Positions 69 through 63,814 are shown, counted from the stretch's first letter. The stretch is DNA of 64,000 bases from Leucoraja ocellata (GCA_036785375.1 JAWMAR010000030.1:7564001-7628000), one strand, 5' to 3'. A program made the numbers and translations. The notes: generated from the letters alone by a model not told the origin.

Positions 69-193
69 TTGTGTAGGAAAGAACTGCAGATGAATCGAAC
101 GTAGCCACAAAATGCTGGAGTAACTCAGCGGGACAGGCAGCATCTCTGGAGAGAAGGAGTTGGTGACATTTTGGGTCGAGACCCTTCTTCAGA
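69..193 (-). mobile_element. Penelope-derived short repeat with decayed hammerhead motif
   Basis: 10-bp TSD cttctgaacc at 59-68 and 194-203; minus strand reads CTGAAGAAGGGTCTCGACCCAAAATGTC. Confidence 0.7.
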
Positions 194-463
194 CTTCTGA
201 ACCAGTTCATCAGGTCCTGGAGATTTCTCACCTTTCATTCCCATTAATTTCCTCAATGCTTTTCTATCGACTAAAGCTAATTTCTTTGAGCTCCTCATTC
301 ATGCCAGACCTGCTGTTCTCCATTATTGCAGGTTTTCCATGCCCTCTTCTGCGGTGACTGATTAACAGAACAATCGTTTGACTTAACGAGCTACCAGAGC
401 TGGCATGACTTTGGTGCTTTCTTCCTGTGCCAAGATATTATAATTGTAAATCATGTTTCTTAC

Positions 464-586
464 TTGCACAGTCTCCTGATCAGATCTGCTGGACGATTAG
501 GGATCCGTTTTGGAAAATCCACTTGCTCCATTCCCTTCAAAATCATATTGTAAGTTTCAATTGCATCAGGACCAGTAAATGGAGGA
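464..586 (-). CDS. PKG2-like coding exon 15
   Basis: 123 nt, [40 protein letters not shown]; donor gtaaga. Confidence 0.93.
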
Positions 587-3500
587 CTGGGGAGACAGAA
601 AATCACACAATTATAGGTTTGTTTGGTCCCGTTTTGTAAACAGTGATTTGGGACTTTCTTCAGATCATATTTCCCCTTTTCTGTAGATGAACGATAGTTG
701 GCAGGATCTGTATAGGACCAGAGCAAATGCGAGTTTGATGGTTGGACTGGGCTCAGTGAGCAGCTGCTGACTCTTGCAGTTGAAATCCAGGAAATGGATT
801 GTAAGTTGGTGAAGGTCACAGTACGGCCTTTTTCCTTGCAACTTGTGGCTGATGCAGATGATATGCCCAGACTTGGAGACTCAGAAGTATAATTTTCTTT
901 TAGCCTTTTAGTGTTCATGAAAATCGCAGCACGCAGCATACAAAAAAAACCATGTGATCTATCTTCTAAACATCCAAGAATAATGTGGAGGGCTAACTGG
1001 TAAGTATCAAGGAATGGGAAATAAGTGGTCAGCTCCTTGAAACAATCCACAATGGACTGAATGGTCTCCTGTCACAACCCAGCCAGGGTCTAGCTTGTGC
1101 TAAATCACTGTAAATGGTCACTTTATAAGTGTGTGCTCTGTGTGAGTGCCTTTAGTGTGAGTGCACCTGATGTGAATGTGCCCTGTGTGATTTACACTTA
1201 CTGCTTCAATGCTTACTTTCCAGTCAGAAGCTCAAAGACCAGGATTCCCAGAGACCAATAGTCTGCACCAAAGTCATGGCCCTTGTTCATGATAATCTCT
1301 GGAGCAACGTACTCGGGGGTTCCACAGAAGGTCCAGGTCTTCTTGCCCAGGCCAATCCGCTTAGCAAAACCAAAATCAGCCTGAAAGACAGGGGTTGGGG
1401 GAATCACATATGTAATGAGTTACTGATTGACGTGTATGAAGCCACTTGCAATATACAATGGAGGAAACAAAGAGCTGGAGTAACTCAACGTGTAATGTGG
1501 CATCTCTGGAGAACACGGATATGTGATGTTTCAGGTCTGGACCCAGGAAGAAGGATCCTAACCAATACTGTCATGTATCCATGTTTTACAGAGATGCTGC
1601 TTGACCCGCTGAATTACTCCAGCACTCTGTGTCCTTTGTGTAAATCAAAATCTGCAGTTCTTTGTTTCTCCAATCTACATTGGCTTGGTTTAGCTTGTGG
1701 TTCCTCAAAGGTGTTCTGAGATAGAAATATCAGGGTTGACGGTGCTTGTGTTTTCCTGCACAAAGACCAGAGCATTTGTGGAAGCATATACAGGGCTTGG
1801 GTTGTGTAGAACGTTAAGCATCCTTTGGTGTTGGTTGACGAGTTGTTTTGGAAGCTTTGGTATGATTAACTATTTGGGCCTCTAATGTTTCTGAACCAGT
1901 CATTTATGGCCAATCTTTAATTTAACTCCATCTACATTTCTTGATTCTTTAACCCGACAACCCTGGTCATTATCTAAACATTCCAGCCCCCACCTGATCC
2001 TGTCTGCCTGTACACCACTTACCTCATGGTATCTTTCCCTTGGTTTATCTTTCACATCTCCTTCACCTCCTGGTTTTATGTGCACATCATTCCTTCCTTA
2101 TCTGATTCCATCTATCACCTTCCAGCCTCCAGCTTGACTTTCACCTCATCCTCCCGATGTCATCTGATTAAGTAACGTATTTTTCTTAGGTTTCTACCTA
2201 TCACTTACCCGCTTCTTGTCTCAGCACTCGCCCCGTTCCCTCACCCATCGGCTCATCATCCATTCCCCTCAGCTGGCTTCTCATATCACCTCCCAGCCTC
2301 TGCCTTAGGCCCCTGTCCCACTTAGGAAACATGAACGGAAACCTCTGGAGACTTTGCGCCCCACTCAAGGTTTCCGTGCGGTTCCCGGAGGTTTTTGTCA
2401 GTCTCCCTACCTGCTTCCACTACCTGCAACCTCCGGGAACCGCACGGAAACCTTGGGTGGGGCGCAAAGTCTCCAGAGGTTTCTGTTCAGGTTTCCTAAG
2501 TGGGACAAGGGCATTACCCCTTCCCCCATCTCTATCTGTAGCTCATTTCCATCTCAGTCCTAATGCAGGTTCTTAACCCAAAACGTTGACCATTCCTTTG
2601 CTTCGAGAGATGCTGCCTGACCCTCTGAGTTTTTCCAGCAGTTTTTTGGCCTATCTCCATCTCTCCACCGTATTATACCAAAATTATGTAGACTGGTACA
2701 GCACAGGTGGCCATTCATCCATTTATGCTGATGCTATCTCTTCAAAAGAGCTATCAATATAATTGTACTGCAATCATTTCCTATACGAATGTTTAGCCAA
2801 TTCATCTTGAAAGGTCCTGTTGAAACAGTAGGCTCCTCATTCAGAGCATACCAATTTGTAATCAATTGCTGCATTTCAAAACTATGCTTCCTCCTCATCT
2901 CTATTCTTTTCACCAATTATTTAAAATGCATGTCTCCTGATTGGTGACCGTTTTCCCACAGAAAACAGATTCGTTTTATCACGATTTTGAAACAAAAACT
3001 TATTGGAGATTTAAAAATAACTTTTGCACATTGCGCAGTTTAAAAATGCACTCGCTGCATTTTCTGGGTGAAGAAAGGTTCTGTGTTTCTCTTGTAGCGA
3101 GGTTAAGGACTTTCATTTAAAAAATTCTCCAGTCAGCTCACAGCCCACACAGTTTTTGTCAGTGGAAAGCTTTGATTGACTACTCCTGAATTAATGCCTC
3201 TCCAAAGCATCCAGCATTTAAGTTTAATTCTGATGCTGGGTGTTAGAGCGTCAGTGAGACTAGGCAGCTAGGATGCAGACATGCCCCCGGGGAGAGCAGA
3301 TTGAGACTTCCTAGATGGGATCCATCAGCTTAATTTGACACCATTAAAAGCAGAACTCCACAAAGTGCTGGAACAACTCAATAGTTCAGGCAGCATCATA
3401 GAAACATAGAAAATAGGTGCAGGAGTAGGCTATTTGGCCCTTCGAGCCTGCACCAATATGATCATGACTGATCATCCAACTCAGTATCCTGTACCTGCCT

Positions 3501-6500
3501 TCTCTCCATACCTACTGATCCCTTTAGCCACAAGGGCCACATCTAACTCTCTCTTAAATATAGCCAATGAACTGGCCCCAACTACCTTCTGCGGCAGAGA
3601 ATTCCAGAGATTCACCACTCTCTGTGTGAAAAATGTTTTTCTCATCTCGGTCCTGAAGGATTTTGCCCTTATCCTTAAACTGTGACTCCTTGTTGTGGAC
3701 TTCCCCAACATCGGGAACAATCTTCCTGCATCTAGCCTGTCCAACCCCTTAAGAATTTTGTACGTTTCTATAAGATCCCCCCTCAATCCTCTAAATTCTA
3801 GCGAGTACAAGCTGAGTCTATCCAGTCTTTCCTCATATGAAAGTCCTGACATCCCAGGAATCAGTCTGGTGAACCTTCTCTGTACTCCCTCTATGGCAAG
3901 AATGTCTTTCCTCAGATTAGGAGACCAAAACTGTACGCAATACTCCAGGTGCGGTCTCACCAAGACCCTGTACATCTCCGGAGAATATGGATGGGTGACA
4001 TTTTGGGATGGGACCCTTCCCGAATCATCACCTATCCTTGTTCTCCAGAGACGCTGCCTGACCTGCTTAGTTACTCCAGCACGATGTGTCCTTTTTTGGA
4101 ACACAAGGTTCTGCAGTTCCTTGTGTCTCCAGGGGTCAATTTATTCAAAGCAATGAAAGTTTCATTTAAATAGCACCTTTCTCATCCCTTTATAATCCAT
4201 TGACTGGTAGCTGATGTAATTGTAATTCAAGGCAATCATGGTTGCACCGCAGGATCACGTACCCAACAGTTTGATGGTAGCCATTGAGTATAAGAGTCAG
4301 GAAGTCATTCATGGTGCATCTTTATAGGATTTTGGTATGGTTGCATGTGGAGTATTGCATGTAGTCCTAGTGACCCATCACAGGAAGGATGTGGAAGCTT
4401 TGGAAAGAATGCAGAGAAGGTTTATCAGAAAGGTGCCTGAATTAAGGGGAATTAGTCACAGGGGGAGGTTGGATTATTTCTTCTGGAACACTGGAGGTTG
4501 AGAGGAGGTCTGATGGAAGTATATAAAATTATGAGAGGCAAAGATAGCATAGATGGTCAGTTGTTTTTCCCAAGATGGAAATATCCAATGCTAGAGGGAT
4601 GGCTTTAAGGTGAGAATTTACTTGCTGATGTATTGTGTCAATGAGAGACTGACTGATGGAGGTTGTATCTGCCAGTGCACGGTATGAGTTGTTACTGGTT
4701 CCACTGGATCAATACGTACCATTTTCACATATCCATCAGAGTCCAGCAGCAAATTCTCAGGCTTGAGATCCCTGTAAATGATTCCTCTGTTGTGCAAATA
4801 ATCAAAAGCCTCCACAACACATCCAACACAAAACCTGGCTGTCGGTTCCTCAAAGAAACACCTGTGAACACAAACACAGATTCAGCTCCCTTAATGGACG
4901 GATCAGTTTTCTTTTCTCCTACTATCTGATAGTGTCCTTGTGAGGCATCTCGAGAGTCTGCATTGCTATGGAACTAGTTATTATTGCCACCTGTCCATAT
5001 TGTGGGCTTGGAAGAATGTATTACCCAGGATGGTTTGGTCAGATAGGTCAACAGAAAGAATCACATTTAAAACTAAACCTAAACTTGATCCACTTAAGAT
5101 CAGTGACTTAAGGCCACTTAAGGTCAATGGCTCGGACTCTGATTTATCTGTGGACATTTGTTTTTATTTGTGCACAAGGGAGCACATAGCTGCATTCCCA
5201 TTGATTGGAATTTACCTGGCTGTGTGATTGGGATTTAATACTTTGTATCAGTTTCAATGAATCGCCTTCTCCTTGGGATTCACCTTTCACAGTACAAAGA
5301 ATGGCAAGTACAGTGACCTCCACATCTACAGATACTTAAGGAAGTTTACCACTGTCCTTTCTGTGAGTTCACCTTTGAGTGACCTGGCTCTAATGTTCAT
5401 GTTCTGGCTTCTTTCTCTACCCGAGTAGATCATTTGATATTTTTTAAGAGCAGACCTCAATCTCTTCTCAAGAAGAAAGGAACTGTGAGAAAATCTGTCC
5501 CTAAGAAAACATTTTTAAGACCATTTCCCTCTTTGGTGAATCTGTGCTGCAACTCTTTTCTAGACATTGGAGATCATCAACCTGAAGCAATAACACAATA
5601 ATGCCCCTGTCCCACTTAGGAAACCTGAACGGAAACCTCTGGTGACTTTGCGCTCCACCCAAGGTTTCCGTGCGGTTCCCGGAGGTTTTTGTCTGTCTCC
5701 CTACCTGCTTCCACTACCTGCAACCTCCGGGAACCGCACGGAAACCTTGAGCAGGGCGCAAAGTCTCCAGAGGTTTCCGTTCAGGCTTCCTAAGGCATAA
5801 CACTCTTTCTCTCTCCACATATGCTGCCTGACCTACTGAGTATTCCCAGCACTTTCCACCTATATTTTATCCAAGACCATTGGAATTGAGGTAAGGTTGT
5901 CAGATCTATAGATAGATGATGGCTTATATTCCACCTCCCTTGCAATCCTAACAGTGGCCATACACAGTAGCCTGCATTGGAATGGACATGGATTGACATA
6001 GAAACATAGAAACATAGAAATTAGGTGCAGGAGTAGGCCATTCGGCCCTTCGAGCCTGCACCGCCATTCAATATGATCATGGCTGATCATCCAACTCAGT
6101 ATCCCGTACCTGCCTTCTCTCCATACCCTCTGATCCCCTTAGCCACAAGGGGCACATCTAACTCCCTCTTAAATATAGCCAATGAACTGGCCTCGACTAC
6201 CCTCTGTGGCAGAGAGTTCCAGAGATTCACCACTCTCTGTGTGAAAAAAGTTCTTCTCATCTCAGTTTTAAAGGATTTCCCCCCTTATCCTTAAGCTGTG
6301 ACCCCTTGTCCTGGACTTCCCCAACATCGGGAGCAATCTTCCTGCATTTTGACGAAATACATTCAAACATTGGAACATAAAAATGACATACACTCACATG
6401 TCACGGAGGACGGTCCACAGCTCCCCGCCCAGACACACCTCCATGAGCATATACACATACTTGGAATCTCGGAAAGTCCGGTACAACCTATAAGTCACAG

Positions 6501-9500
6501 TTAGATAGCCATCAGATATTTCCCTTATTATTTTTGAAAGAGTCTCGCAACAGAACCTATTCTTTGCTCCGGTTAAAATGAGTTAAAATATGTGGTTGAA
6601 TGTTGGAAATGGCACTGGGTTCTACAAGATTGGGCAGCATCTCTGGGGAAAAGGAACAGGTGACATTTCGGGTCAGAACCATTCTTAAGACTGCAGTGAC
6701 CGCTGGTCGGTGCGGACTCGATGGGCTGAAGGGCTTATATCCATGCTATATCTCTAAAGTAAACTAAACTAAAACTGTTCCTGAGCTCTGAAGATACACA
6801 AAATTGCTGGAGAAACTCAGCGGGTGCAGCAGCATCTATGGAGCGAAGGAAATAGGTGACGTTTGTGGCCGAAACCCTTCTTCAGACTGTTGGGGGGTGG
6901 GGGGGGGGGGGGAGAAGGAAGGAAAAGGGGAGGAGGAGGAGCCCGAGGGCGGGTGGATGGGAGGGTGGGAGGAGACAGCTAGAGGGTTAAGGAAGGGGAG
7001 GAGACAGCCATTTCTAGCACCATTACCGACTTCATCAATTCCCACGCCCTGCCCGACCAAGCAGCCTCAACTTCTCCACTCCCTTGTCTCACTCTAATCT
7101 TTCCCCCTCTGAACGCACTGTCATTGAATCACTCCGCAAAAACCCAGATTGGGTTATCAAACCAGCCGACAAGGGAGGTGCCGTGGTAGTCTGGCGCATC
7201 GATCTCTACAAAGCTGAGGCTACGCGCCAACTCTCGGACACCTCCTCCTACTTACCCTTGGACCATGACCCCACTGACGAGCACCAGGCCACCATTTCTA
7301 GCAACATCACCGACTTCATCAATTCCCACGCCCTGCCCGACCAAGCCCTCTCTCCTGAGCTCTGAAGCATTGATTTAATAATGTGAATACTATCCTGGAT
7401 TAATAATGTGAATACTTTCCTCCCTATCTTTGTAAATTCATACAGCCCCCCAGTAATATCTGGTTTCCTCAAACACTAACCTTTCGTTCACTCTCTCCCT
7501 GCACCTCATCACCGATTTGGAAACCCATTCTGGTTCTTTCATCCTTAGTGGGTCAAAATCCTGGAGCTCCCAATTGTGGCATTCCTTACTCAATCATCAC
7601 CAGAGAAAGGAAACTTCTCAAGGGAAGCAGGAAAAAATACTAGCACACCAGCATTGTAGCAATGGTCACATCCTCATGAAGAATCTTTTGAAAACATCAT
7701 AAAGTGACTGGTGCTTTTATCCTTAAAAATCATTGCGAGGCAAGGCACAATACTGGAGCTCGTAACAATTGAAAGGAACATACAACCAACTCGTCAAAAA
7801 TTACACTGATTGGCCAGCATTTTGATGGCAATGGATTCTTTGAGTTTAAAGCAGTCCCATTGTAAATGTCGCATGGTAGAAGCTTTTGACCTAAAACATT
7901 AAGCCATGCTTCTCTCTCCACAGATGCTGCCTGATCTGCTGAACATTTCCACATAACAATCAAAGACAAAATTGCCGCTAGAACGTGGTTAATCCACCTC
8001 CATCCTCTTGTGTTGACTGAGTGCCGGTGGTTATTTTTCTGCCGATAAACGTCGCACTGATCATCCACCCTGTAGTTGGGCAACCTCGTGTCATCGTGGG
8101 GTGTTTGTTCTTGTTGAGGCACCTGTGTGGTGGTTGGGATGGAGTGAATTGAAGCATGGGCACTCTGAGAGTGCTGAGGGGGGAAGCCATTCAGCGCAGA
8201 GAATCTAGGGATCAGACATTACTATGCAACTGAGTTAGAGGTCACAGGTTCACTTCTCTGATTGTAAGCACAATAATCTCAACATTATCTGTCCTCCATG
8301 TGGGCTTAAATTGTCTGCCACTTTTCTTACGCATTCAAAATAATAAATTTATTGACTGCATGATGCTTTGCGACACCTTGAAGCTACGGCGGGTGCTTTG
8401 GAAATGCACAATCTTACTTCCTTTGATCTTATTTAGAAATCATTGATAAACACTTTTTCATACAATCCGCAGATTGGTAATACGCAAAGTAAAATAAATC
8501 AACACGAAGCAATCGCCTTTCCATATTAATTGGTATGTATGACATGCTTTGTAGCATTATCTATTATTTTTAAATTATTCTAAAATATTCTTTGATAAAA
8601 GACTCCTGTGCACTCTTAAGCAGGCAGCTGGAGCAGAAGGCTTTATCATCTTTGTTGCACACCCCATTGTAAGTCTCCAGACATGCCTGACACACAATTC
8701 ATTTCAATCATAAATTGAGCTGACATTTGAAAATGACATGTGCTTCAGATTTGGTTGAAGCTATGACAGTCTGAAGGCACAAAACAACAGGTGGCTTGGT
8801 GTAAATGTGCCAGCAGCACTTTCACAAGGCAACTTTGACCATTTTCATCACTAAAGGTTTGTGCAGAGAAAGTTTGACAACACCCAAGGAGGGGGCTGAA
8901 ACTACAAGGGTGTTTTGGAGTAGGAAGCAGTCAGATATATCAAATTCAGACAAGAGTTGAGTGAATGTAATTAAACAAAATGCATCGGTGCTTACATAAT
9001 ATGCCAATGTTGTTTCCTGGTCTAGTGAGTGAAACAGACAGGGGGAACACATTAATAAATTCATGTTCATAAATGATAAGAGCAGAATTAGGCCATCCGG
9101 CCCATCAAGTCTACTCCACCATTCTATCTTTCCCTCTCAACCCCATTCTCCTGCCTTTTCCCCGTAATCCCTGACATCCAGGGTGTCATCTTTGAGCATG
9201 AATGAGCAGGAAATAAATTTCCTGGTGTACCTAGGCTACCAAGTCATCAACTGAAGTGACTTATTCTCATACTTCTGATTTGCAAAGGTGTAATGAGCTA
9301 AAATCTGAATGGATCATAGTTGTTACCCACAGTTGGAAGACTATAGGACATAGAAACAGATTTGCACACATTTTTACAGACACCTGCACTATACATAACT
9401 CTGTAAGTATTAACTGAAAATGTGCCCACGTACATACAAATTACCAACATTTGCAAAGATACAAAAATTACACAAAGATCCACTGACAGTTACATACACA

Positions 9501-33072: not shown

Positions 33073-33083
33073 TACTGGCTTAC

Positions 33084-36210: not shown

Positions 36211-36775
36211 CAGTCTGAAGAAGGGTCTCAACCCAAAAGTCACCCATTCCTTCTCTCCAGAGATGCTGTTTGTCCCACTGAGTTACTCCAGCATTTAGTG
36301 TCTCTCTTCGGTTTATACGGTTCCTTCTTACATATTTTGTCTGCTCCACTGGTAAATCTCCTCAAGGTATTTCTTCTTTGAAGAAGTTCTTCTCCTCTCT
36401 CCGACGAGAGTTCAGCAACATCCACTCTCCCTCTGTGGTTCCTCCTGATCGCCGACTCTACGACCACATATTAACCCAGACTCACTACCACAACCATGTT
36501 TGTTTTCTCAATGCTTGCCTGCATCTCCATCTTCTAGCTCGGGGATTCCAACTCCGGTTCCAGACCTCGCAGTTCGGACACAACCCGATTACTGGTACCG
36601 ACAGTCGATCTGCCGCTTTTCGCAATAGTTCTTCTTCCGTGCCCTGTGCTCCACACTTGCTGCGATGGATCAGTCTGAAGAAGGATCTCAACCTGATACG
36701 TTCGTTACCCATTCCTTCTCTCCAGAGATGCTGCCTGTCCCACTGAGTCACTCCAGCATTTTGTATCTATCTTCA
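36211..36775 (+). mobile_element. Penelope-like element 5' fragment between direct terminal repeats
   Basis: Direct repeats at about 36211-36315 and 36671-36775, each beginning cagtctgaagaagg; intervening ORF remnant RLYDHILTQTHYHNHVCFLNACLHLHLLARGFQLRF. Confidence 0.7.
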
Positions 36776-40155: not shown

Positions 40156-41849
40156 AGCATTAGTACTGCTACAATCTACAATCACATCTTAGCCCTTCAT
40201 CTTAGGATCAGATGGCTTCCCTCCAGGGAGTAAAGGAAGTAGGTGAGAACATTGAAGATTCCCTGACAATGATTTTCCACAGTTCCCTCAATTCAACAAG
40301 CAATGTACTGCATGTCTCTGGAGATCTTTAGATGGTCAGATACAGCCAGCATATGAAAGGTGGAGTATGCCTATTGAAAAACTGCCACGATTATGAATGT
40401 TATGGCAGCAGCTTTTTGAACTGCTGCAGTTTGCATGGCGAATGTGTTGTCAACGTTTTTAGGAAGTGCGTTTCTGGGTATTGATGAAGTGGCAGTGAAG
40501 GAGTGACAACATTATTTCTACATCAGATAGTTGTTCCACTGGAATTCCCAATGCCAGTGGAAGTTGATTCAATAAGGGAATTGGATTATTGATTGAAAAA
40601 GATCTGTTGGGGTATGGGAAAAGAGCGGGATGAGGGTAGATTTAATTGAAACATTTCTATCAAAGATCCAGGACAGGAAAAAAAACAACAAATGCTCTCT
40701 ATTTTTGTGAATTGTTGCTTTGTGATTCTCAGAAAATTGATGCAAAACACATTTGATAGCTGTGTCTCTGTGGACTAGAAATTGCTCAAGACTGAATTTG
40801 TTTTACCGGTAGTAAAGCGGATAGCAGATGTACGGCATCATCTTGTAACAGTATATACATATGTCTTCCAAACTTTAGAGTATCTAAAAGCTTGTACACA
40901 TGGTTAAGGAAATTCCTCTGGATCATGCAATTAGTTGAAAACAAACAGCAAGCCTTATTCTTGTGGGCCATGTCAAATGACATCTTTATTTGTGCCTTCT
41001 GCTATTCCCAATCATAAAGTCAACCAGCAAAAAAAGGCTGTACTTTCAGCTGTTATCACAATCAGTTTATTCGTCACCATACAACCATTAATAAGAGTTG
41101 CTATCAGTCAAGAACTGTAATAACACTTAAGTGTTTTTCTAGGAGCTGAAGCTTAATACAGTATGTAAACATCAACCATGGCTGGCTTGAAATGCTGAGA
41201 CAATAGTTTAGCATCCCTTACTTAATATTGTTCGCCCTGGTTAGGACATATAATTATTTGATACAGATTCACCTACAAAAATAAAAAAAGGAACGCATCC
41301 CTCCCTTCTCAATTTTTATTATCAGCTGCCTCTGCTGAAGTAATTGAATTGAATTGTTTAGCTTATATTGGGGTTAACACACATTGTGATATATCAGCAG
41401 AAAAAACACAAATAAATGGAGGCACAAGAAACTGCAGATGCTGGAATCGAACAATAAACAAAATGCCGGAGGAACTCGGAGTGTGAGACAGAATCTGTGG
41501 AAGTAATTAGACAGACAATGTTTCAGGTTAGGATCTTTCTTCAGCCTGAAGGACTCTGAAGAAAGATTCTGGTCTGCAGATTCCCTCGAAAGATGCTGCC
41601 TGACCTGCGGAGTTCCTCCAGTACTTTGTTTTTAGACACAAATAAATCCCTGGCAGGAATACATACAGTTTGCAATTGGTGGCTTAGGGCAATGGCTTCA
41701 AATAACCAGGTCTGCAGTTAAGGGCAGCCCACTTCATATAATACAATAAATTACAATGCAGCTGTGGCTCCTTATATTATGCACGAATATCATGCAAATA
41801 ATAACTGCAGTATTATGTCTCAAAATTAGCAGATGAATACACAGGTACA

Positions 41850-54000: not shown

Positions 54001-57000
54001 GGATACGTCAACTATCCATGTTCACCAAAGATGCTGCCTGACGCGTTGAGTTACTCTTACTGTCTTCATCGGCACCAAAACATAGTAACACTTGTATACT
54101 GCCTGGATGAGGACTGCTACATGATTTTACCAGGTTGTATGCAAAACAAACCATTTCACTGTACCTAGGTACATGTGACAAAGTATAATTGAATGTCCAT
54201 AAGCAATGAATTATGACGTCCCCCGAATCTGATGCTTTTTCCATTAGCAATTACCAACATCAAAACAAGTAAAGGGTTCAGGCAAAGATATTGGCTTGTA
54301 GTTTTCTTAACTGCTTAGCTGCAAAATTGGACATGTGCAGGGTTACTGCATAATTGGCATTACTATATGCTGCCACTTATCAGTTGTGCCATATATACAC
54401 AAGATGAGGAGTCACTATAATCAGAATGTAAAATATATTAATTTTACTATAAATTCCATCTTTATGCCCATCTATTGTAATCTCTCACATGGAGTGAGGA
54501 CCTAAAAGTCACGATACATACCAATAAATTTGCACATAAAATCACTTGGAATTAAAATATTGGTCATAAGCATTTACATTCAACTATTTACTATTCTGTA
54601 CGGTGTCCATGGAGATTTGCAATTGAAATTGCCTTAGCCCAATGGCCCACATTTCGTCTCACTCTTACCCTTTCTCCTTTTGGTCCTGCTGGCCCTGGTA
54701 CACCCTACATAGAAATGAATATATTTATATATTTAAGAACAACACACTACCCTCACCTGTTTCAATGCCATTAACAAAAAAGGCCTAGCATTAGAGCGGA
54801 AGGGCACTTAGATCATTCAGAGAATAGTACATGAACCAGTTGCTCAGCCTAAAGAAAATTAAGTAGCGCATTCTTAGTAGGACTGGGGCATTTCTGTTGG
54901 TGAAATAAGCCTGGGTTTTACCAATGTGATGAATAGGATCTGTAGAACATATAAAATGAGGCAGTGCCTTGAATTCATCTGCCCACCAATTTCATGTGTC
55001 TCCTCTTGTGTCTTCTATGTGGCCAAACAGGTGAATTTAGAAATGGTGAACCAAGAGACTTAACACTGCCATTTTGTGGCTCTGTTCTAAAATCAAGATT
55101 GCAATACAATTAAGTACATTATTTCTTAGGACGGGTGAGTGAATGAAAAGAAAATATAGACCGTAGGATAAAATCCTTGGCAGTTTACGTGGAATTTATG
55201 TAGATGGAAATGTAGTCTGCATGGCCCTCTTTTGTTTATCAGGTACCCATGGGAAAATAAGATTGTTGCCCTGTGTATTGCTGATAACTATCTGAAGAGC
55301 CTTTGGCTCATTGATGCAGTAAAAAAGCTCAGTAATTTTGTCAGTACAGGCATACAGGGACATTAATGAGCTTACTCAAATTCTTTTCAGCTTTTTAAAA
55401 TTACCATCTGAAATAAAAATCGAGATGTTGGATATATCGAACAGGTCAGGCAGCATCTGAGGAAAGAGAAACACTTTGTCCAATGCGGAAAATTATCTCA
55501 GTTTCACTTTCCACAGATGCTGCCTGATCTACTATGTGTTTCCAGGATTTTTTCCTTTAGATTTTAGATCTTTGTTATCTGCAGTTTTTTTTGGTTTTTA
55601 TTTACTGTGGGATTAACATCTTTCTTACTGTATTGATTCATGTGAGAAAATGCACATAAACTACTGTTGAGGACAAGCCACCATGCAGCACAGTGAAGGC
55701 TGGACATTTCTCTTGGTCATTAATTATATATGGAAAATGCATTGTAAATTGCTTCAGTCATTTTTCTACTGACATTCCGAGGCAAAGTACAAACTCCTGC
55801 TATTTTAATATGCAGATTAGCATACATGACAAATAAATATATCTACTCCAGTGGGATAATGGACAGATATTCTTTGGTTGAGGTGTCCAAGGGATGAGGG
55901 AGGCTTTTGATTCCAATGCAAAATTACTAGAGAACATCCAGTACTGGAGCAGCCTACATATATTGAACTGATACATGACAAAAAGGGATCAAGTTCCGTC
56001 TCCACTATGGAAGGTTGAAAAAAATCTGCTGCGCCTAGCTCAAGGGTCCAATTCTGCAGTAACAAACTAAAAAAAAAAGGCATATTCTCCTACATTTTGC
56101 AGCGGTCCCTGCAGTAATAGGCTGGTGATGTTCCTTAAAAAAATCTCAGAGCCTTCAAGAAGGCAGGGGAACATAAGACATTCAGCCTCATTCGACACTG
56201 TGATTTATTTTCCAATATTAAAAAAAACGGAATAGTTATGTTTAGGTCTGTGCATTTCTTATTTTATTGAAAACCTAAGTGATGTATTTTGTTAAAATCT
56301 AGTAATCCTGAGCAAGGGAAGAACCAGCTAAACAGAAAGCGTGCATCTGCATTTTCAAGTGGGCTGCCAAAGAAATGAATCTAATTGAAATTCAGTCTCA
56401 CTAATGTACACTTTGAAATGTTGATACACTGCAGTGCCAATTGCTGTTGGTTACTGGACATGATTATGAAGGTACCTATACCCTACAGAAGGGTTCGCCA
56501 CTTCCAAGTAGTAGAGCTAGCACTTCATGGGCATGGTTCCTGCCGGTGGGGACATAAATCGTCCTACTAGGCGTCTACTAACCTCACAACAATGCTCCTT
56601 AGGCAGAGACTATAATTTTGACGAGTTCCACTGAGTAATGAATGTATGAATAGGAAAGTGTATTTTGTGGTGAATATCAGTATTCCAGGGCATTGTTGAT
56701 TATCAACAAGCCAGTCCTGTTCTTGAGGGAAATACTAGTCAATGGGAGGTGGGATGTCTCTTGCTCTGATCTTCGGAACTCTGTACCTAGTGGTTGGATC
56801 AAGTAGTTAGTCACAACCAAGGGATTTTCTTCACTTTTGCAAAGTTTACCTTTGAGGAGACTTTCTCTCTTAGGGTGTTCTGAACAATTTGGCTAAACCG
56901 ATTAACATCTATGCTAACTTGCTTAAATGGATGGGATGTTTACAATACATTAACTTATCAAAGACTGTACAGGCCACTGTATGGAATCGCAGAAGCTCAG

Positions 57001-60000
57001 CCTAGCAATGGGGTTTCATAAATGACACCAGAGAATATAGATTGGGAGTGAAATTTGGCATGAGTACTTTACCCTTTCTAGTCGACCGAAATTGAATTTT
57101 ATCGCAATGATTTCGGAATCTGTGCAACAAATCTTGCAGCATGGATATGTGTTACACTTTAATTTGAAGGGTCCACTTTGGTCAGTATAACTCAGTAAGA
57201 TCATAGGCCCAAGTTACACATCAACATTAAATGCTTCAGACCTACTAAGACAGGATAGATTTACTGTAAACCACAGATTGCTTTGGTATATGTAAATGTA
57301 GGACAATTGCTAGAACCAAAATTGCATCCCGCTCAACAAAACTAATTTTGTTTAAAAGCATTTTAATTCTTTATTTCCTACATTTGTTAATTTACCAGAA
57401 TTACAACGCTGTGGCTGCAATATTTGTAGCCATTGAACAGTCACGTTACTTAAGCATTTCCTAATCCGAATGGTAAACCAAAATGTTAATTAAGCAGTCG
57501 CATGCACTGGCATATATCTCATGCTTCATTGACAATGGTAATGATTCACTGTACAGGCATGGATTCCAGCGATGTTAAATTCACAATGCAGTCCAACAGC
57601 AGTGTAGCAGGCACGAACTATCTAGGAGAATGGACATACAGAACTCACCAGTGGTCCAGGCTGTCCATCTAAGCCAGAAGCACCCTGGACAGTGTATGAA
57701 GTGTTAAAAGTGGAAAGAACAGTGGGGAAGAAATGAATGTAGCAGTGAAAAGGGACATGTGCTGGCATAACTCAATGAAAGGTGATGACATAATGTTGAA
57801 AGGGATGAAGACTTGACATATCTATCAGCACACATGAAAGCTTTTGGAAACACAAACAATTTAGCTGAATATTTCAGGCTTTTGAATTTGCTTTAATATT
57901 TTGATAGTGAATTGGCAATGGAAACATCATTGTGGTTACCAGGAGTTACCTGTGTAATAATTTTACAGAACAGGTAACCAGCACAGGAACTAGCTGAAAA
58001 TACCAAATGCCAAATCTTCACAATTAGCAAAGAGTGAATATGACCAGCACCTTGTGTGATTGAAAGTGAATTATGATACATGTACACTGGATCAATAATG
58101 AATTATGGCAATGTTGGTGATAAAGCATTGTTTTCTATCCATTACACAATGGATAATGGATTATCTAATGCAGAAAGAAATACGCTATTTCAACATTAGA
58201 CTTCACACACATACACATACACACACGCACACACACACTGCAACTGCAGCTTTCAATACCTAGTATATTCTCATGTTTCTGTGACTTTAATAGTGAATTT
58301 AAGCTTGCGTTTTTTTTTTCCATCTGCCTAATCTTTAAATTCTGTTGATCACCCAGAACTAAGGAAGGACTTCCCTATAGTTATTGATGTTACCCATAGA
58401 TTATGTAGAATGGTTCCGTTTCCTCTGGAAGGATTGTGATCTCACTCAGAGGGCTTGACAAATTGGATGTACACATAAATGCTGGAGAAACTCAGCGGAT
58501 GCAGCAACATCTATGGAGCGAAGGAAATCGGCAACCTTTCGGGCCGAAACAGCTGAGTTTCTCCAGTATTTTTGTGTACCTTCGATTTTCCAGCATCTGC
58601 AGTTCCTTCTTAAACACTTTGACAAATTGGATATTGTATTTTTCTCTTGGATGGTGAATCTCAAAACAATGTTCCCAGGACAAGGGTTCCGCCTCTTAAT
58701 TGGGCTATGGAGATGTGACTTTACTCGGGTTTTGAGTGCTCAATACTTTCAAGAACCAGTTCAATAGCTTTTTAAATAAGAATGGGATTGGCAAATATGG
58801 TGACATTTGACAGGAATGTACAGTTATGGTAGAAGACAGACTGTAACTTCAAACCAATTCTGAGAAGCCTTGATGAATGGGCAAATTCTGTTCATTTATG
58901 AGTATTCCTCATTAGGACACCATGAATGATTAAAGATAGTTATTACATTTTGAAAAATCTTTCATTTAAAAAAACATGTCCCGTGCCTCGATTTGTCCTT
59001 GCGAATAATTTTGGAATGCAAAAATACTAAATTGAGTTTTGATGAAAGGAATTTCAGCTGCATGCATGGCTGAAGACCCAGACTCTGCAGTAGAGAACAT
59101 GGATAATGCTGGTCTAAAAGCTATGACTTTGTTCTTGATAATCTTGACCCTGCTCAGTATCAAGCTTGGCCCATGTGCCATGTTTGTGTTGATTTATGCT
59201 GTAGATGCTGATTCAGAAAGGCTCGGCTTAATTTTCAGACCAGCATTTTGCTCAAAAAGCCCAGAAATAAGTCTCTGGAAGTGAGACATAGCTGGTGCTT
59301 ACTTTCCTTTTAATTTAATTTAGTTTAGAGATGCAGTGCGGAAACAGGCCCTTAGGTCCACCTGGTCCTCGAAGACCAGCAATCACCGCATATTAACACT
59401 ATCCTACACACACTAGGGACAATTTTGACATTTACCAAGCCAATTTACCTACATACCTGAACATTTTTGGAGTGTGGGAGGAAACCGAAGATCTCGGAGC
59501 AAACCCATGTAGGTCACAGGGAGAACGTACAACCTTCATACAGATACTATAGCACAAGTGGTTGGGATCAAACCTGGGTCTCCGGCGCTGCAAGCACTAT
59601 AAGGCAGCAACTCTACCGCTGCGCCACCGTGGCCCCCCCTTCCTCGTTCTGCGGCTGTTGCATTGGTTCTCACTTGGTTTTGTTGCCCTTATTTTCGCCC
59701 CCTACCATCACTGCCCTTCTCCTCCCCAAAATTCCCTGGAACTCTATTTATTTCTTGGAAAGTTAGCCCGGCCAATATCCAACCTATTTAATGTTACGTT
59801 TTTTCAGTTTTATGGGAAGTGAGGCTGAGAGGGTTGCACGCACTAAAACAATTCATGGCTTGTCAAGGAGTGGTAGGTTTCTGCAGAAGCACCAAGGACC
59901 AAGTTGATTCCTCCCCTTCAGAGATTGAATTCAACATGAAGTTGTTAAGTGGGCAGATGTTCACCTCTGGAACTGCTCACCTGACTGTACAGGTAAATTT

Positions 60001-63000
60001 AAAAAATTCCCTAAACTGATGTGTCTTTTAGTTTTAAAAACGGTAGTCTAACGTGCGGTAACACACAAGTTATGGTTAGATGGTTTCTATAAAATTAGCT
60101 GTCTAAAGAATGAATATGATTTGTAGACCATGTTAATTTCACTCTCATGCCCAGAAATCCCACATTGACAGTATCCGCTACAAGTACAGATTGATGGCAG
60201 TAACAGAAAATAGAACTTACAGGCAGTCCCAAGGGACCTCGATCACCTCTATCACCTTTGAAGCCTTCTGACCCAGGCTCGCCCTACATCAATGAGAAAA
60301 TTGTGGTGTAATATGTTCACAATGTCATATCTGTATCATACATATGCTATCCAATTTACACACATAAAGCCACTACTAAACATTCTAAGGTATAAATATC
60401 TTGGAGCTAAACTGTGAAGTCCAAATACTAATATTGAAAAGGAATACCAGCTAAAATGTAGAGTCTGGACCCTTGGCCAGCTAACTCTGTTGGCCATGAA
60501 ATACTGAAGATGTCCTGTTAGGTCAAGCAGAAATTGTGGAGAGAGACAGTTCATCTTGCAGCTGCAGGATCTTTCCTCAGAATTCTCTCTCTACAGATGC
60601 TGCCTGACCTGCTAAATTCTTTTTAACATTTCCAATTTTTAATGTAGTTACCATGATGCAATAAACGACAGATCCAACATGTGGGAAATAAGGCGTGTTG
60701 TAGATTGTTAGCTTGTGGTAGCTTTCATAAAGCAAATTAACTCCTAGCGTTTGAGAACATTATACCATACTTAGTCAAAAATATGATGTGTCGTTTCAAT
60801 TTTCATTTTGTTAATGATATTTAATGTTGATCTTTCAGAATCAAAAATTTGAAAATCTATATTAAAATACATAATGGAAGTGAATTAAAAAAAAACCCAG
60901 TTAATTTGGTGAGGACAATGAGAGTTTGTGGATTTTAGATTAAATAATGTACCATCCAGGAGGCAACAAGCATTGCCTCAGGCTGAACAACTCATTCCAT
61001 GAATTCTTTCCCACTCAGACCTTTTCAAAACATGTATCGAAGTCAAAGATCAAATGTGTTCTATTTTTATCAATCAACAAATTTAAACTATTGTATAGCG
61101 AGAGAAACTGTTACACTGAAAGTAAGCAGCAGCAAGTCTATATTATCGTACAAAGCTCATGAGACATTATTCTAAATATATATTATACACTATTGCAAAA
61201 GTAGTTCAAGAATAATTAAAATTACCTTTGTCCCTGAAAAGCCATGAGGACCCTGGGCAGAACAGATTAGAAAGCCGGTTTAAAATAAAGAACATTTCAT
61301 CCAGATTACAATATAACAAGCTCATTTCCAATGGCAACATTTCCAAATTTATCAAAATGACTGAAAGGATAATGGATTTTAGCTACACGGTTAGGTTGTA
61401 AGAGTTGGAACAGGGGTTCTTCTCCTTAGATGGTAGGTTTGATATGAGATGAAGACAAGCTTGGATAAGGTAGACAAAGAAATATTGCTCCCATTTGTGG
61501 GCGGCAAAGGGACTAGAGTTTACGATTTGGGGACGTAATACGCGGGCAATTTGAGGAACGACTCTTTTAGGCATGTCGGTAGCAAAAATCTTGGAACCTA
61601 CTGCCCAATAGGGTAGTGGAAGTTGAGGCATGTGATTTTCAAAAGAAAATTAGGTTTACACTTGAGGGAAGTAAACTTGCAGGATACGGGGACAGGGCAG
61701 GGCAATATTGGTGTATATTGGTATCAGGCTTGCATTTGTTGGTGTATTTCTGAATGACAATAACATTTTTGATTGATTGATTGGATAGGACTGACTGGAT
61801 TGATCAACAGGGGTTAGCATTGGCACAATGGGCTGAATGGCTTCCTTTTGTGTTGTAATGACAGTGGACTCTCTGACAAATGAACATATTGCTCTTTTCA
61901 AGTCCTGATGCACTTAAAGCAATCTAACTATTCTTAAGCATAAAGCAAGCCAGATATGCTATCAACGTATGGTCCAGATGTGTATGATATACAAGTTTTC
62001 CATTCAAAGATAGCTGTTTCAAATATAATTAAGTGCCCTGGAATGATGAGGTATGAAAAGACTTTATAAAAATCAAGGGTCTTTCAACAGGCATAACTAA
62101 TTACAGTGCGATTAAAGGATATAGTTTACATTCAAATTTACACCTTGTTAATGGATCACCTCTGCTGATGCAATACCCTTAAAATTAAAATTAAGCGTAA
62201 CTCTGCGAGCAAACGTATTGAGTATGAGAGGTCATGCTAGCTTCGTCCTCGTCTTTCATCCCAAGTTGAGAAGAATGGAGGCTTACCTTTGGACCTGGGG
62301 GGCCCTCAGGCCCAGGTATTCCTGGCGGCCCAATAACCTGCAAAAGGAAGAAACATCTTTCAGTGTATACACTAGGCAAACTTTGCAAAAGGTTCATGAA
62401 ACAGTGGACTGTGCTGTGCAGGTTCTGATTGTGACTTGTAAAATGGATAGTAGTTTGCTGATTGAGTGGAAATCCTTTTACATGTTGCCATTTGACAGAC
62501 AAAAAGATTTCGGGGGATTTAGGCCAAATACGGGCTAATGGGACCAGCTCAGATGGGGTATCTTGGTCAGCATGGATGAGTTGGACCGAAGGGCTGGTTT
62601 CCATGCTGTATGACATTAAACACACCAAATCACACATACGTCAGTAATACCCAGAGCTATCTTTTGTCTAATTCTTAGATTTAATTGTTTCCAAAATCTG
62701 ATTTTGCTGGATGAAAAATGTTTTGTGTTTTTTTTACAATTTGCTTCAAGTTTCATCTGAAATTGTCCTTTCCTGTGATCTGGATTGCATTGCAAGCTTC
62801 AATGGTCATTTTCAGAAAAGGGTAAATTTGTAAAGAAGATACATTTTCAGGGCTAGGGACTAATAGCAAAGTTCTTTCTAAGAGGTGGAATTGCAAATTG
62901 GGTGAATAGCCCCCCTTTTGGATGCCCTCTGGTACAAACATAGGGCATCGATCCTGCCCTCGGCTGCTGCATGTGTGGTGTTTGCACGTTCTCCCTGTGA

Positions 63001-63536
63001 CTGCGTAGGTTTCCTCCGGGTGCAAAGGTTTCCTCCCACATCCCAAAGACGTACGGGTTTGTAGGTCAATTGGTCTCTGTAAATTGCCCCCAATGTGTAG
63101 GGAGTGGATGGCAAAATGGGATAACATTGAACTTGTGTGAACGGGTGATCAATGGTCAGCCTGGACTTGGTGGAGAGAACGGTTTGTTTCCATCTCTAAA
63201 AACAAAACAAAAACTAGAAAAGGATCTAAATCAGGCACTGGGATGAAGAGTGGGAATTAAATAGGGCTAGATGTTAAATGGAAGTGGTTAAATGTAATGG
63301 GAACTTAAACGGGATGGAGAGGAAATCGAGACCAGCAGCCATTTCCTTGGCACCAATATGGTACTATTCTTCAAGACCACTTTGACCCTATAGTGTTAAG
63401 CACCAAAATGAAGCGAGCATCAGCTGCAGATACTCACAGTTGAGCCTGGAAGTCCAACAGGGCCTGGCAATCCAGGAGGGCCTTGTAATCCTGGCTCTCC
63501 CCTTTCTCCTTTTTCACCTGTGGGCCCATCTAAACC
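42006..63536 (-). CDS. COL13A1: Membrane-associated collagen, type XIII alpha-1-like, 3' part (COL3 and NC4 domains)
   Basis: Phase-0 Gly-X-Y exons 63438-63536, 62287-62337, 61226-61252, 60221-60283, 57649-57684, 54669-54704, 51858-51911, 50435-50470, then 47930-48016 or 47303-47380, then 43347-43385 ([13 protein letters not shown]) and stop at 42008-42006. The C-terminus [20 protein letters not shown] matches my recollection of collagen XIII rather than XXIII or XXV. Confidence 0.85.
43347..43385 (-). CDS. COL13A1: Collagen NC4 exon, 39 nt
   Basis: [13 protein letters not shown]; atag| and |gtaagt. Confidence 0.92.
47303..47380 (-). CDS. COL13A1: Collagen exon, 78 nt (alternative B)
   Basis: [26 protein letters not shown]; acag| and |gtatgg. 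Confidence 0.88.
47930..48016 (-). CDS. COL13A1: Collagen exon, 87 nt (alternative A)
   Basis: [29 protein letters not shown]; gcag| and |gtatgt. Confidence 0.9.
49150..49232. repeat. 83-bp near-perfect palindrome
   Basis: 41-bp arms 49150-49190 and 49192-49232, one mismatch, 1-nt spacer. Confidence 0.95.
49270..50020 (+). mobile_element. Degraded CR1 fragment with nested Penelope-derived repeat (49724-49870)
   Basis: gatgacactaaaataggt (DDTKIG); nested insert flanked by 14-bp TSD aattgagtatagaa at 49710-49723 and 49871-49884. Confidence 0.75.
50435..50470 (-). CDS. COL13A1: Collagen exon, 36 nt
   Basis: [12 protein letters not shown]; tcag| and |gtaaga. Confidence 0.88.
51241..51335 (+). 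mobile_element. Penelope-derived repeat with hammerhead motif (C3 to T)
   Basis: TTGAAGA-A-GGGT-CTCG-ACCC-GAAA-CG-TC-a followed by the family body. Confidence 0.7.
51858..51911 (-). CDS. COL13A1: Collagen exon, 54 nt
   Basis: [18 protein letters not shown]; ttag| and |gtaagg. Confidence 0.9.
54669..54704 (-). CDS. COL13A1: Collagen exon, 36 nt
   Basis: [12 protein letters not shown]; gtag| and |gtaaga. Confidence 0.88.
57649..57684 (-). CDS. COL13A1: Collagen exon, 36 nt
   Basis: [12 protein letters not shown]; ccag| and |gtgagt. Confidence 0.85.
58469..58618. mobile_element. Palindromic Penelope-derived repeat
   Basis: 14-bp TSD ttgacaaattggat at 58455-58468 and 58619-58632. Confidence 0.8.
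59313..59636 (-). mobile_element. V-SINE (HE1-like)
   Basis: Reverse complement of the 19165 family; ctctaccgctgcgccaccgtggcccc head at right end. Confidence 0.85.
60221..60283 (-). CDS. COL13A1: Collagen exon, 63 nt
   Basis: [21 protein letters not shown]; gtag| and |gtaagt. Confidence 0.9.
61226..61252 (-). CDS. COL13A1: Collagen exon, 27 nt
   Basis: GPHGFSGTK; ccag| and |gtaatt. Confidence 0.82.
62287..62337 (-). CDS. COL13A1: Collagen exon, 51 nt (Gly-X-Y interruption)
   Basis: [17 protein letters not shown]; gcag| and |gtaagc. Confidence 0.9.
62943..63200 (+). mobile_element. V-SINE, 5'-truncated
   Basis: tcgatcctgccctcggctgctgcatgtgtggtgtttgcacgttctccc core; short-repeat tail. Confidence 0.8.
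63438..63536 (-). CDS. COL13A1: Collagen exon, 99 nt
   Basis: [33 protein letters not shown]; ttag| and |gtgagt. Confidence 0.92.
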
Positions 63537-63606
63537 CTAAACACATAATACAAAAGGAAACTACTTCAGGGCATTGAAGGCTAATTCAAAATGCTCTAGT
63601 CTAAGT

Positions 63607-63814
63607 GTTCAAGAAGGAACTGCAGATGCTGGAAGATCGAAGGTACGCAAAAATGCTGGAGAAACTCAGCGGGTGCAGCAGCATCTATGGAGCGAAGGAA
63701 ATAGGCGATGTTTTGGGCCGAAGAAGGGTTTTCGGCCCGAAACGTCGCCTATTTCCTTCGCTCAATAGATGCTGCTGCACCCGCTGAGTTTCTCCAGTAT
63801 TTTTGTGTACCTTT
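63607..63814. mobile_element. Palindromic Penelope-derived repeat
   Basis: About 85-bp inverted arms; 16-bp TSD atgctctagtctaagt at 63591-63606 and 63815-63830. Confidence 0.85.

What the first reader, a model, noticed from the sequence alone, without database searches (positions are those of the whole stretch)
162..63750. About 20 dispersed copies of a short repeat carry a minimal hammerhead ribozyme core
Seen: the most common short repeat in the window begins with gt-CTGAAGA-A-[GGGT-YYCG-RCCC]-GAAA-CG-TC-ac. Approximate starts: 162(-), 6659(-), 6855(-), 10505(+), 17455(-), 19968(-), 24299(-), 24488(+), 26060(-), 34351(+), 35805(-), 35851(+), 36211(+), 36671(+), 37256(-), 41518(-), 51241(+), 63720(+). 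Stem II keeps its pairing across variants (GGGT/ACCC versus GGGT/GCCC wobble; loops CTCG, TTCG, TCCG). Most decayed copies changed at CpGs (CGAAACG to CAAAATG). Known: CUGANGA...GAAA...UH is the hammerhead catalytic core, and Penelope-like elements carry minimal type I hammerheads whose tiny palindromic stem III (AC-GU) is thought to work as a dimer. Inference: a repeat that looks like an ordinary SINE is a ribozyme-bearing, non-autonomous Penelope derivative (retrozyme-like) at about one copy per 3 kb here.
Basis: partly seen in the sequence, partly recalled or inferred. Interest (0 to 1): 0.82.

Follow-up and report, generated by a model that had tools for sequence, protein, structure and literature searches.

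The report
Penelope retrotransposon end pieces with hammerheads
The short repeat is the terminal repeat of an abundant Penelope-type jumping gene and carries that element's already-known tiny hammerhead ribozyme motif; nearly all copies are decayed, and about half begin right at the ribozyme's front edge, likely because they were copied from an uncut RNA that starts there.

Summary
Observation confirmed: all 18 listed sites exist, among 47 segments of one ~100/135-nt repeat; only one (17458-17485, minus) keeps a complete minimal hammerhead. It is not a separate SINE or retrozyme. It is the pseudo-LTR of a Neptune-type Penelope-like element: the repeat lies just 3' of the RT + GIY-YIG ORF in 19 of 20 long-ORF loci and also 5' of the ORF start. 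The window holds ORF pieces of it (7018-7362; about 36345-36670). Inverted pairs, 10-16-bp target duplications and an optional ~35-nt tail are standard Penelope marks. A 1.2-Mb sample extrapolates to ~0.9 million hammerhead-covering copies, ~160,000 intact. The core is invariant across subfamilies but decays neutrally after insertion; stem II shows no two-sided compensatory change; tandem units are rare. New detail: 5' ends pile up tenfold at the hammerhead's 5' edge (an initiator-like site), with no excess at the cut site. This suggests run-off copies of an uncleaved RNA that starts there. Cleavage is untested; a relative's RNA-seq shows no ends at the cut site. The scan already noted this kind of finding in three other genomes. 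Known kind, new member.

The parts
17392..17487 (-). Young pLTR copy (subfamily A, no tail); the only window copy with a complete minimal hammerhead, core at 17458-17485, predicted cut between 17458 and 17457; lies sense in an intron of the kinase gene
   Evidence: 14-bp target-site duplication at 17378 and 17495
6779..7367 (.). One Penelope insertion with an inversion: pLTR 6791-6888 (-) plus 3' UTR, joined to an ORF fragment on +; flanked by a 15-bp target-site duplication
7018..7362 (+). Fragment of the Penelope ORF with the DKG motif N-terminal to the RT core
   Evidence: 91% identical to the L051 ORF over 7066-7347; 150 of 150 scored genomic matches at 82-100%
36212..36670 (+). 5' pLTR (36212-36307) plus tail running into the start of the Penelope ORF; truncated
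   Evidence: the same stretch continues to the RT DKG motif in L135 and L137
36672..36773 (+). Second, direct pLTR copy closing the 36212 piece; core damaged
63591..63830 (.). Head-to-head inverted pLTR pair (63641-63721 -, with tail; 63717-63812 +) inside a 16-bp target-site duplication
59..203 (-). pLTR copy 100-195 with tail, two CpG changes in core and stem III; 10-bp duplication at 59 and 194
1463..1635 (.). Inverted pair, decayed (1463-1544 -, 1547-1635 +)
2561..2644 (+). Decayed pLTR copy
3358..3419 (-). pLTR fragment without core
3973..4092 (.). Inverted pair, decayed (3973-4019 -, 4007-4092 +)
5810..5855 (+). pLTR fragment without core
6631..6692 (-). Decayed pLTR copy, core damaged
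7878..7943 (+). Decayed pLTR fragment
9722..9806 (+). Decayed pLTR copy
10506..10592 (+). Decayed pLTR copy, two CpG changes
15034..15120 (-). Decayed pLTR copy
19907..19997 (-). Decayed pLTR copy, core damaged
24248..24331 (-). pLTR copy with core bases intact but a mismatch in stem II and a deletion downstream
24489..24575 (+). pLTR copy, core bases intact, stem III palindrome broken
25997..26093 (-). Subfamily B pLTR copy with 3' UTR upstream; core bases intact, stem III palindrome broken
26705..27032 (.). Three decayed segments (26705-26760 -, 26851-26926 -, 26939-27032 +), the last two an inverted pair
32803..33202 (.). Inverted pair (32803-32877 -, 32956-33035 +) and a further decayed segment (33124-33202 +)
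34351..34447 (+). pLTR copy with tail, two CpG changes
34735..34815 (+). Decayed pLTR copy
35750..35905 (.). Inverted pair (35750-35838 -, 35851-35905 +), cores damaged
37195..37287 (-). pLTR copy, G12 lost at a CpG
41406..41647 (.). Inverted pair (41454-41546 -, 41555-41634 +) with a 12-bp duplication
46464..46547 (+). pLTR copy with internal deletion across the cut site
49710..49884 (.). Inverted pair without cores (49732-49790 -, 49789-49833 +, tail) in a 14-bp duplication
51242..51333 (+). pLTR copy starting at the hammerhead edge, C3 changed
52715..55551 (.). Four core-less fragments (52715-52757 +, 54002-54057 +, 55425-55465 -, 55489-55551 +)
58455..58632 (.). Inverted pair (58469-58550 -, 58543-58582 + with tail) in a 14-bp duplication
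60586..60618 (+). Core-less fragment

Best explanation
The repeat is the pseudo-LTR (pLTR) of an RT + GIY-YIG Penelope-like retrotransposon of the Neptune type, and the short copies are pieces of it, likely made by the element's own enzyme from an uncleaved RNA that likely starts at the hammerhead's 5' edge. Shown: the order pLTR - tail - ORF - 3' UTR - pLTR; target-site duplications; head-to-head inversions; two 3' ends about 35 nt apart; a tenfold pile-up of 5' ends at the hammerhead's 5' edge and none at the cut site; neutral decay after insertion. Inferred (about 55%): RNA polymerase II starts at an initiator-like A three bases before the core, and the protein primes reverse transcription internally at the pLTR or tail end, as shown in vitro for the anole element PAc. 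In the first pLTR of a transcript it then runs off the 5' end after about 100 or 135 nt, giving a discrete SINE-sized unit. Inferred (about 65%): the hammerhead is a weak, dimer- and probably protein-dependent ribozyme kept by selection on the element, not the host; cleavage is not needed for insertion, and lone genomic copies are essentially inert.
For: Repeat 3' of the ORF on the same strand in 19 of 20 loci picked from 150 hits for long open frames, and within 450 nt after 58 of 79 endonuclease C-termini of 36-100% identity, for both main subfamilies. ORF: RVT_1 and GIY-YIG hits, both below Pfam's curated cut-offs; Atlas neighbours at 0.98 with HTH_animal, RVT_1 and GIY-YIG; linker CX4CxxC in 4 of 4 ORFs examined, the mark of Neptune/Nematis (PMC8557442). 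pLTR upstream of the ORF start in L135/L137 and window 36212. 3' ends bimodal near model columns 92-99 and 132-136, matching the 30-40-bp tail (PMC11167929). 109 head-to-head, 22 direct and 14 tail-to-tail neighbour pairs among 530 segments. 5'-end hazard 62 events in 573 nt at the edge, 18 in 1772 upstream, 13 in 922 at the cut site, 42 in 2973 inside the hammerhead (210 young copies); it holds without inverted copies (41 in 424 versus 14 in 1418) and in subfamily A alone, whose UTR is known (0.11 versus 0.005 per nt). 12 of 24 independent young copies start at the edge, 0 of 24 at the cut. 7 of 11 independent copies that carry the hammerhead and run into the ORF start also begin there (plus window 36212). 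UTRs of different subfamilies diverge up to the same edge. Base before the edge is G in 8 of 14 non-inverted copies (p=0.017), as a copied cap would give. PAc hammerhead mutants still insert, and PAc cleaves only with protein.
Against: No direct map of the RNA start: in a related organism's RNA-seq no pile-up of read ends was listed at the edge or at the cut site, though these libraries are dominated by read-through and do not enrich 5' ends. 42 of 210 young copies, and 4 of 11 ORF-start copies, extend upstream of the edge, so some templates start further upstream. The extra-G count is post hoc and small, and the target-duplication-defined copies do not show it consistently. Only 11 of 62 edge copies have an exact duplication of 10 bp or more (control 0). 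In D. virilis Penelope the start lies 46 nt before an intron whose end abuts the hammerhead, a different layout. For ribozyme function: no two-sided covariation; stem II pairing probability 0-0.24 in 12 folds of 4 copies, and the active fold costs about 6 kcal/mol as monomer and 25 as the natural dimer. No tree with reference Neptune proteins was built.
Confidence: 0.8

Rival explanations
1. The short unit is an independent non-autonomous element (retrozyme or SINE-like) that is transcribed, self-cleaves as a dimer, circularises and is re-copied as a unit by the Penelope enzyme.
For: The unit is discrete and would hold both the putative promoter and the priming site. 77 exact tail-to-edge junctions exist genome-wide (control 0), and L095 holds a 130-nt head-to-tail array with two intact cores. 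Retrozymes are proposed to arise from pLTRs (bioRxiv 2026.07.22.740005).
Against: Only 1 locus among the 77 shows two successive junctions (exact pattern, subfamily A tail only, so a lower bound). Young short copies share rare variants with copies carrying 559-1500 nt of ORF. No column separates edge copies from UTR-bearing copies beyond one per subfamily at p 0.008-0.05 among 92 columns. No 5' ends in excess at the cut site.
Confidence: 0.1
2. Same Penelope origin, but the 5' pile-up is a stall or template-switch site of the reverse transcriptase on longer RNAs (structure, the pyrimidine tract, or a splice-acceptor-like CAG at the edge), not an RNA start.
For: The edge is preceded by a pyrimidine tract ending in CAG, and in D. 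virilis the intron end abuts helix I. 21 of 62 edge copies have an inverted arm upstream. Some copies run past the edge.
Against: A stall at RNA structure is expected on the 3' side of the fold, not after passing it (general knowledge). No shared exon is joined upstream of edge copies, and no GT..AG joint ending there was among the 15 best-supported joints listed in either lay (171 and 213 further joints not shown). The pile-up persists in non-inverted copies, with a slight extra-G excess.
Confidence: 0.3
3. The motif is kept in this lineage mainly as an internal promoter or protein-binding signal, and is no longer an effective ribozyme.
For: Stems I (2 bp) and II (4 bp) are at the short end of published examples; folding disfavours the active form; downstream blocks are just as invariant across subfamilies. 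The ACGT of stem III lies at +27 to +30 from the putative start and is shared with the downstream promoter element RGACGTGY named for Penelope. 9 copies lie sense and 7 antisense in the kinase gene span, including the intact one in sense.
Against: All 11 core bases, the inserted base, G10.1-C11.1 and the palindrome match the cross-phylum hammerhead consensus. The three variable stem positions keep pairing through wobble. The related PAc motif cleaves with protein and loses activity with core mutations.
Confidence: 0.2

Closest known systems
Minimal hammerheads (min-HHR) in pLTRs of metazoan Penelope-like elements, including fish Xena, Poseidon and Neptune (Cervera and De la Pena 2014, PMC4209133)
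   Same: CUGANGA plus one inserted base, G10.1-C11.1, GAAA, a two-base palindrome and UH; present in both pLTRs and as many lone copies or opposite-strand pairs.
   Different: Helix I 2 bp and helix II 4 bp are unusually short. About 160,000 intact motifs are extrapolated here against about 4,000 (coelacanth) and 9,000 (Xenopus), with a different descriptor. No shark or skate term in supplement file 2 (file 1 not searched).
Neptune-type EN+ Penelope-like elements (PMC8557442; A. vaga families PMC3846280)
   Same: Single ORF with RT then GIY-YIG, CX2-5CxxC linker, pLTRs, inverted 5'-truncated copy, optional tail, target-site duplications.
   Different: Clade assigned by motif only. The discrete 100/135-nt unit with a fixed 5' edge was not found described in the passages read.
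PAc (Poseidon of Anolis carolinensis; Frangieh et al. 2024, PMC11167929)
   Same: Two 3' ends bounding a tail, hammerhead in the pLTR, no RNA-seq ends at the cut site, insertion from uncleaved RNA.
   Different: PAc is Poseidon clade and its ORF starts inside the hammerhead; here the start codon was not fixed and the protein has the Neptune-type linker.
Non-LTR retrozymes (Cervera and De la Pena 2020, listing only; Li et al. bioRxiv 2026.07.22.740005)
   Same: Short, non-coding, type I hammerhead, pLTR-related; a few head-to-tail dimers here meet the two-unit definition (L095).
   Different: Retrozymes are tandem arrays with a hammerhead in each unit; here nearly all copies are single or head-to-head.

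Membership tests
Minimal type I hammerhead of Penelope-like elements | Core CUGANGA / GAAA / UH with one inserted base after A9 | tested here: met
   Invariant in 5 of 5 subfamily consensuses; 43 of 132 near-full copies keep all core bases; matches the published consensus
Minimal type I hammerhead of Penelope-like elements | Palindromic 15.2-16.2 with no helix III loop | tested here: met
   CG in all subfamily consensuses
Minimal type I hammerhead of Penelope-like elements | Helix II closed by G10.1-C11.1; helix I flanking the core | tested here: met
   4-bp helix II in consensus; helix I of 2 bp or more in 46 of 55 core-intact copies, mostly 2 bp
Minimal type I hammerhead of Penelope-like elements | Compensatory changes in the helices | tested here: inconclusive
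   Only one-sided wobble changes at 3 positions; the first 100 of 1333 relaxed-pattern matches looked like decayed copies of the same family
Minimal type I hammerhead of Penelope-like elements | Self-cleavage as a dimer or with protein | not testable with these tools
   Folding disfavours the active form; no read-end pile-up in a relative's RNA-seq
EN+ Penelope-like element, Neptune type | One ORF with RT followed by GIY-YIG endonuclease | tested here: met
   Pfam RVT_1 E 1e-6 and GIY-YIG E 1e-3 to 8e-3, below curated cut-offs; DKG, YIDD motifs; Atlas 0.98
EN+ Penelope-like element, Neptune type | CX2-5CxxC linker between RT and EN | tested here: met
   Present in 4 of 4 ORFs; the feature is shared with Nematis
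EN+ Penelope-like element, Neptune type | pLTR at both ends of the ORF, optional 30-40-bp tail, inverted 5' copies, target-site duplication | tested here: met
   the two pLTR positions were seen in different copies, no single intact pLTR-ORF-pLTR copy was recovered
EN+ Penelope-like element, Neptune type | Placement with Neptune in an RT tree | not tested
Non-LTR retrozyme | Tandem repeat with a complete hammerhead in two or more consecutive units | tested here: not met
   0 in the window; 1 locus in 1.2 Mb; 1 of 77 junction matches lies in a run of two
Non-LTR retrozyme | Abundant circular RNA of unit length | not testable with these tools
   Only oligo-dT and single-cell libraries of a related organism were laid
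tRNA- or 7SL-derived SINE | Pol III head unrelated to the partner element | tested here: not met
   No tRNA or 7SL match over the repeat in Rfam at E<=5; the whole unit is continuous with the Penelope UTR and ORF

The most novel reading that the evidence does not exclude
In this Penelope lineage the hammerhead sits three bases from the RNA's capped 5' end and overlaps the internal promoter, and the element's internal priming turns that first pLTR into a discrete 100/135-nt unit. Hundreds of thousands of insertions then record that the ribozyme is almost never cut in RNAs that get inserted; it would act as an off-switch that decaps dimerised RNA rather than as a processing step. Rare template jumps from this 5' end to a tail make head-to-tail dimers, the birth step of retrozymes.
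Probability: 0.3. Interest if true: 0.6.

Novelty: new member of a known kind. Interest (0 to 1): 0.3.

Why it matters
Hammerheads in Penelope terminal repeats are published, so the core finding is ordinary. Two things add value. The family covers about 3.5% of sampled bases (41,589 of 1.2 Mb) and 0.17-0.29% of bulk RNA-seq reads in a relative, so it would be mis-annotated as a SINE. And the role of Penelope hammerheads is an open question: the breakpoint map gives an in-genome test, with no footprint at the cut site and a sharp one at the 5' edge, and names a precise site for start-site mapping.

Tried and rejected
Rfam scan: no hammerhead model hit at E<=5, only microRNA-type chance matches on hairpins and microsatellites. 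Run search: no RNA holder listed; four raw-read runs of a related organism were laid instead, with no informative read ends; their strand bias in single-cell runs was not interpreted. Search for a second hammerhead family with another stem II: none seen in the first 100 of 1333 matches, so covariation could not be tested. Subfamily A 3' ends failed (empty reference); its tail was read instead. Selection on inserted copies rejected. Depletion of sense copies in the host gene not seen, 9 versus 7, small numbers. Splicing at the edge not seen. Cap-G test: 13 of 23 overall, confounded by inversion junctions; 8 of 14 after removing them; kept as suggestive only. The Lunse et al. paper on dimer cleavage is not held; only its title was seen in a reference list. 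Sequence look-up in earlier scan notes found nothing. A structure search with the first kinase exon gave only coiled-coil noise.

Full report
1. Observation. All 18 listed sites are present within 4 nt and on the stated strands, among 23 hits with at most 6 mismatches. A profile built from the copies finds 47 segments in the window, and none in reversed control sequence. A strict minimal-hammerhead descriptor finds 1 copy in the window (17458-17485, minus), 28 in 600 kb of genome sample and 0-1 in each of 10 Markov controls. Stem II variation is one-sided. The '17455 variant' is a monomer with a short duplication of its own 5' end. Rfam has no hammerhead hit.

2. Setting. The window is G000:C30:7564001-7628000 in a 3.44-Gb assembly of 5847 contigs. 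That the host is a cartilaginous fish is my inference from recalled repeat landscapes and comes from no call. The first 28.7 kb lie in a cGMP-dependent kinase gene on the minus strand (exon match E 3e-10; the name PRKG2 is recalled from the N-terminus).

3. The repeat belongs to an autonomous-type element. A 115-aa open frame at 7018-7362 holds the DKG motif and matches 150 of 150 scored genomic places at 82-100%. I fetched 20 of these 150, chosen for long open frames. In 19 of 20 the repeat lies just 3' of the ORF end on the same strand, about 115 nt after the stop where the frame is whole (L053 and L062 look like duplicates). The ORF has RVT_1 and GIY-YIG hits below the curated cut-offs, Atlas neighbours at 0.98 and a CX4CxxC linker in 4 of 4 ORFs, which marks Neptune and Nematis (PMC8557442, passages). 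Over all loci held, 58 of 79 endonuclease C-termini are followed by the repeat within 450 nt, in both main subfamilies, through UTRs that differ up to the hammerhead's edge. The repeat also precedes the ORF start: window 36212-36670 is such a piece, and in L135/L137 it continues to the RT. No single intact pLTR-ORF-pLTR copy was recovered. Window insertions at 6779, 17378, 41406, 49710, 58455 and 63591 carry 12-16-bp target-site duplications, and the one at 59 a 10-bp one; 7 of 14 tested had none. 3' ends are bimodal, about 35 nt apart, the Penelope tail (PMC11167929, parts 1-2 of 4; PMC3846280, passages).

4. Abundance and arrangement. 120 stretches of 10 kb at arbitrary positions (biased to large contigs) hold 530 segments, 304 covering the hammerhead and 57 strict motifs of this family. 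Extrapolated: 1.5 million, 0.87 million and 0.16 million (0.12-0.21); the assembly holds near-identical duplicates, so these may be inflated. Neighbour pairs within 150 nt: 109 head-to-head, 22 direct, 14 tail-to-tail; one direct array (L095, 130-nt unit) has two intact cores. An exact tail-to-edge pattern gives 77 matches genome-wide, control 0, with one run of two. This is not a retrozyme array family as defined in bioRxiv 2026.07.22.740005 (parts 1-3 of 5).

5. Conservation. Five subfamilies were clustered on sequence 3' of the cut site (132 near-full copies of 277 segments). Core columns vary in 0 of 11, downstream columns in 20 of 62 (p=0.03; subfamilies are related and downstream also has invariant blocks). 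Stem I and II changes keep pairing by wobble only. Against their own subfamily, copies differ at 6.1% of non-CpG core cells and 7.0% of invariant flank cells (p=0.27): no host selection. The motif fits the published consensus (PMC4209133, parts 1-2 of 4 and supplement file 2 part 2), with short helices. Folding disfavours the active form: stem II probability 0-0.24, about 6 kcal/mol for the monomer and 25 for the natural dimer. Published min-HHRs are inactive as monomers and weak as dimers; PAc needs its protein.

6. 5' ends. Among 210 young copies (at most 10% diverged; 320 of 530 segments dropped as old or partial), 62 start within -4..+3 of the A three bases before C3: 0.108 per nt, against 0.010 upstream, 0.014 inside the hammerhead and 0.014 at the cut site. 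An unrecognised UTR could mimic an edge start, but the peak holds in subfamily A, whose UTR is known, in non-inverted copies, and in 12 of 24 independent copies from 30 loci chosen only by sequence 3' of the cut (includes the window copy), none of which starts at the cut. 7 of 11 independent hammerhead-bearing copies that run into the ORF start also begin there (38 loci, the rest duplicates or truncated further 3', plus window 36212). The site reads as an initiator (consensus recalled). D. virilis Penelope has an internal promoter with a downstream element sharing the ACGT (PMC2377424, passages and section 15), but there the hammerhead lies after an intron. Extra G before the edge: 8 of 14, suggestive only.

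7. RNA. Four 2026 runs of a related organism (2 studies) were laid on a subfamily A 3' end and a subfamily B 5' end. The pLTR is deeply covered on both strands; the ORF start about 100-fold less. No pile-up of ends was listed at the edge or the cut site. This is weak evidence either way.

8. Mechanism. Shown: Penelope pLTR identity, insertion marks, breakpoints, neutral decay. Inferred: transcription from the edge, internal priming at the pLTR or tail end, run-off of uncleaved RNA giving 100/135-nt units; a weak, protein- or dimer-dependent ribozyme that serves the element. Rivals: RT stall at the edge (0.3); promoter-only motif (0.2); independent retrozyme (0.1).

9. Novelty. Hammerheads in Penelope pLTRs, lone copies and opposite-strand pairs are published. 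Seven literature searches (listings, not full texts) showed no paper on this family or on a 5'-end pile-up at the hammerhead edge. The review PMC6765202 was seen as passages; Lunse et al. only as a title. The scan's notes hold three similar readings from other genomes (unchecked, not support). Verdict: new member of a known kind, interest 0.3.

Noticed in passing
L002, L021, L132 (G000:C30, about 5.73-5.76 Mb): The window's region has an inverted, 99% identical second copy about 1.85 Mb away on the same contig; many other loci also come in near-identical pairs (segmental duplication or retained haplotypes).
   Followed up: partly
window 463-28740, minus strand: Exons of a cGMP-dependent protein kinase gene (463-1071 E 3e-10 to PKG1 structures; 15827-16258 and 28270-28740 by inspection); the intact hammerhead copy lies sense in one of its introns.
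   Followed up: partly
window 62194-62640, minus strand: A short Gly-X-Y collagen-like stretch in an open frame, probably an exon of a neighbouring gene.
   Followed up: no
window 30084-30653 (+) and 3484-4140 (-): C-terminal fragments of another LINE reverse transcriptase (weak RVT_1 hit; CR1-like by recall), with many dispersed 3' ends.
   Followed up: no
L017:2214-2581: An array of about nine 34-nt units made of the hammerhead's stem II to just past the cut site, lacking the first core bases; RNA-seq of the relative shows joints going back 33-34 nt at the same place.
   Followed up: no
L095:8969-9322: Natural head-to-tail array of the 130-nt pLTR-plus-tail unit with two intact cores: a ready substrate for a dimer cleavage test.
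   Followed up: partly
L058:8071-9683: A divergent Penelope copy, 66-71% identical in DNA to the main family; its pLTR lies beyond the stretch held.
   Followed up: no
G000 pattern matches: A recurring variant with two bases deleted from the 5' strand of stem II appears many times among the first 100 matches.
   Followed up: no
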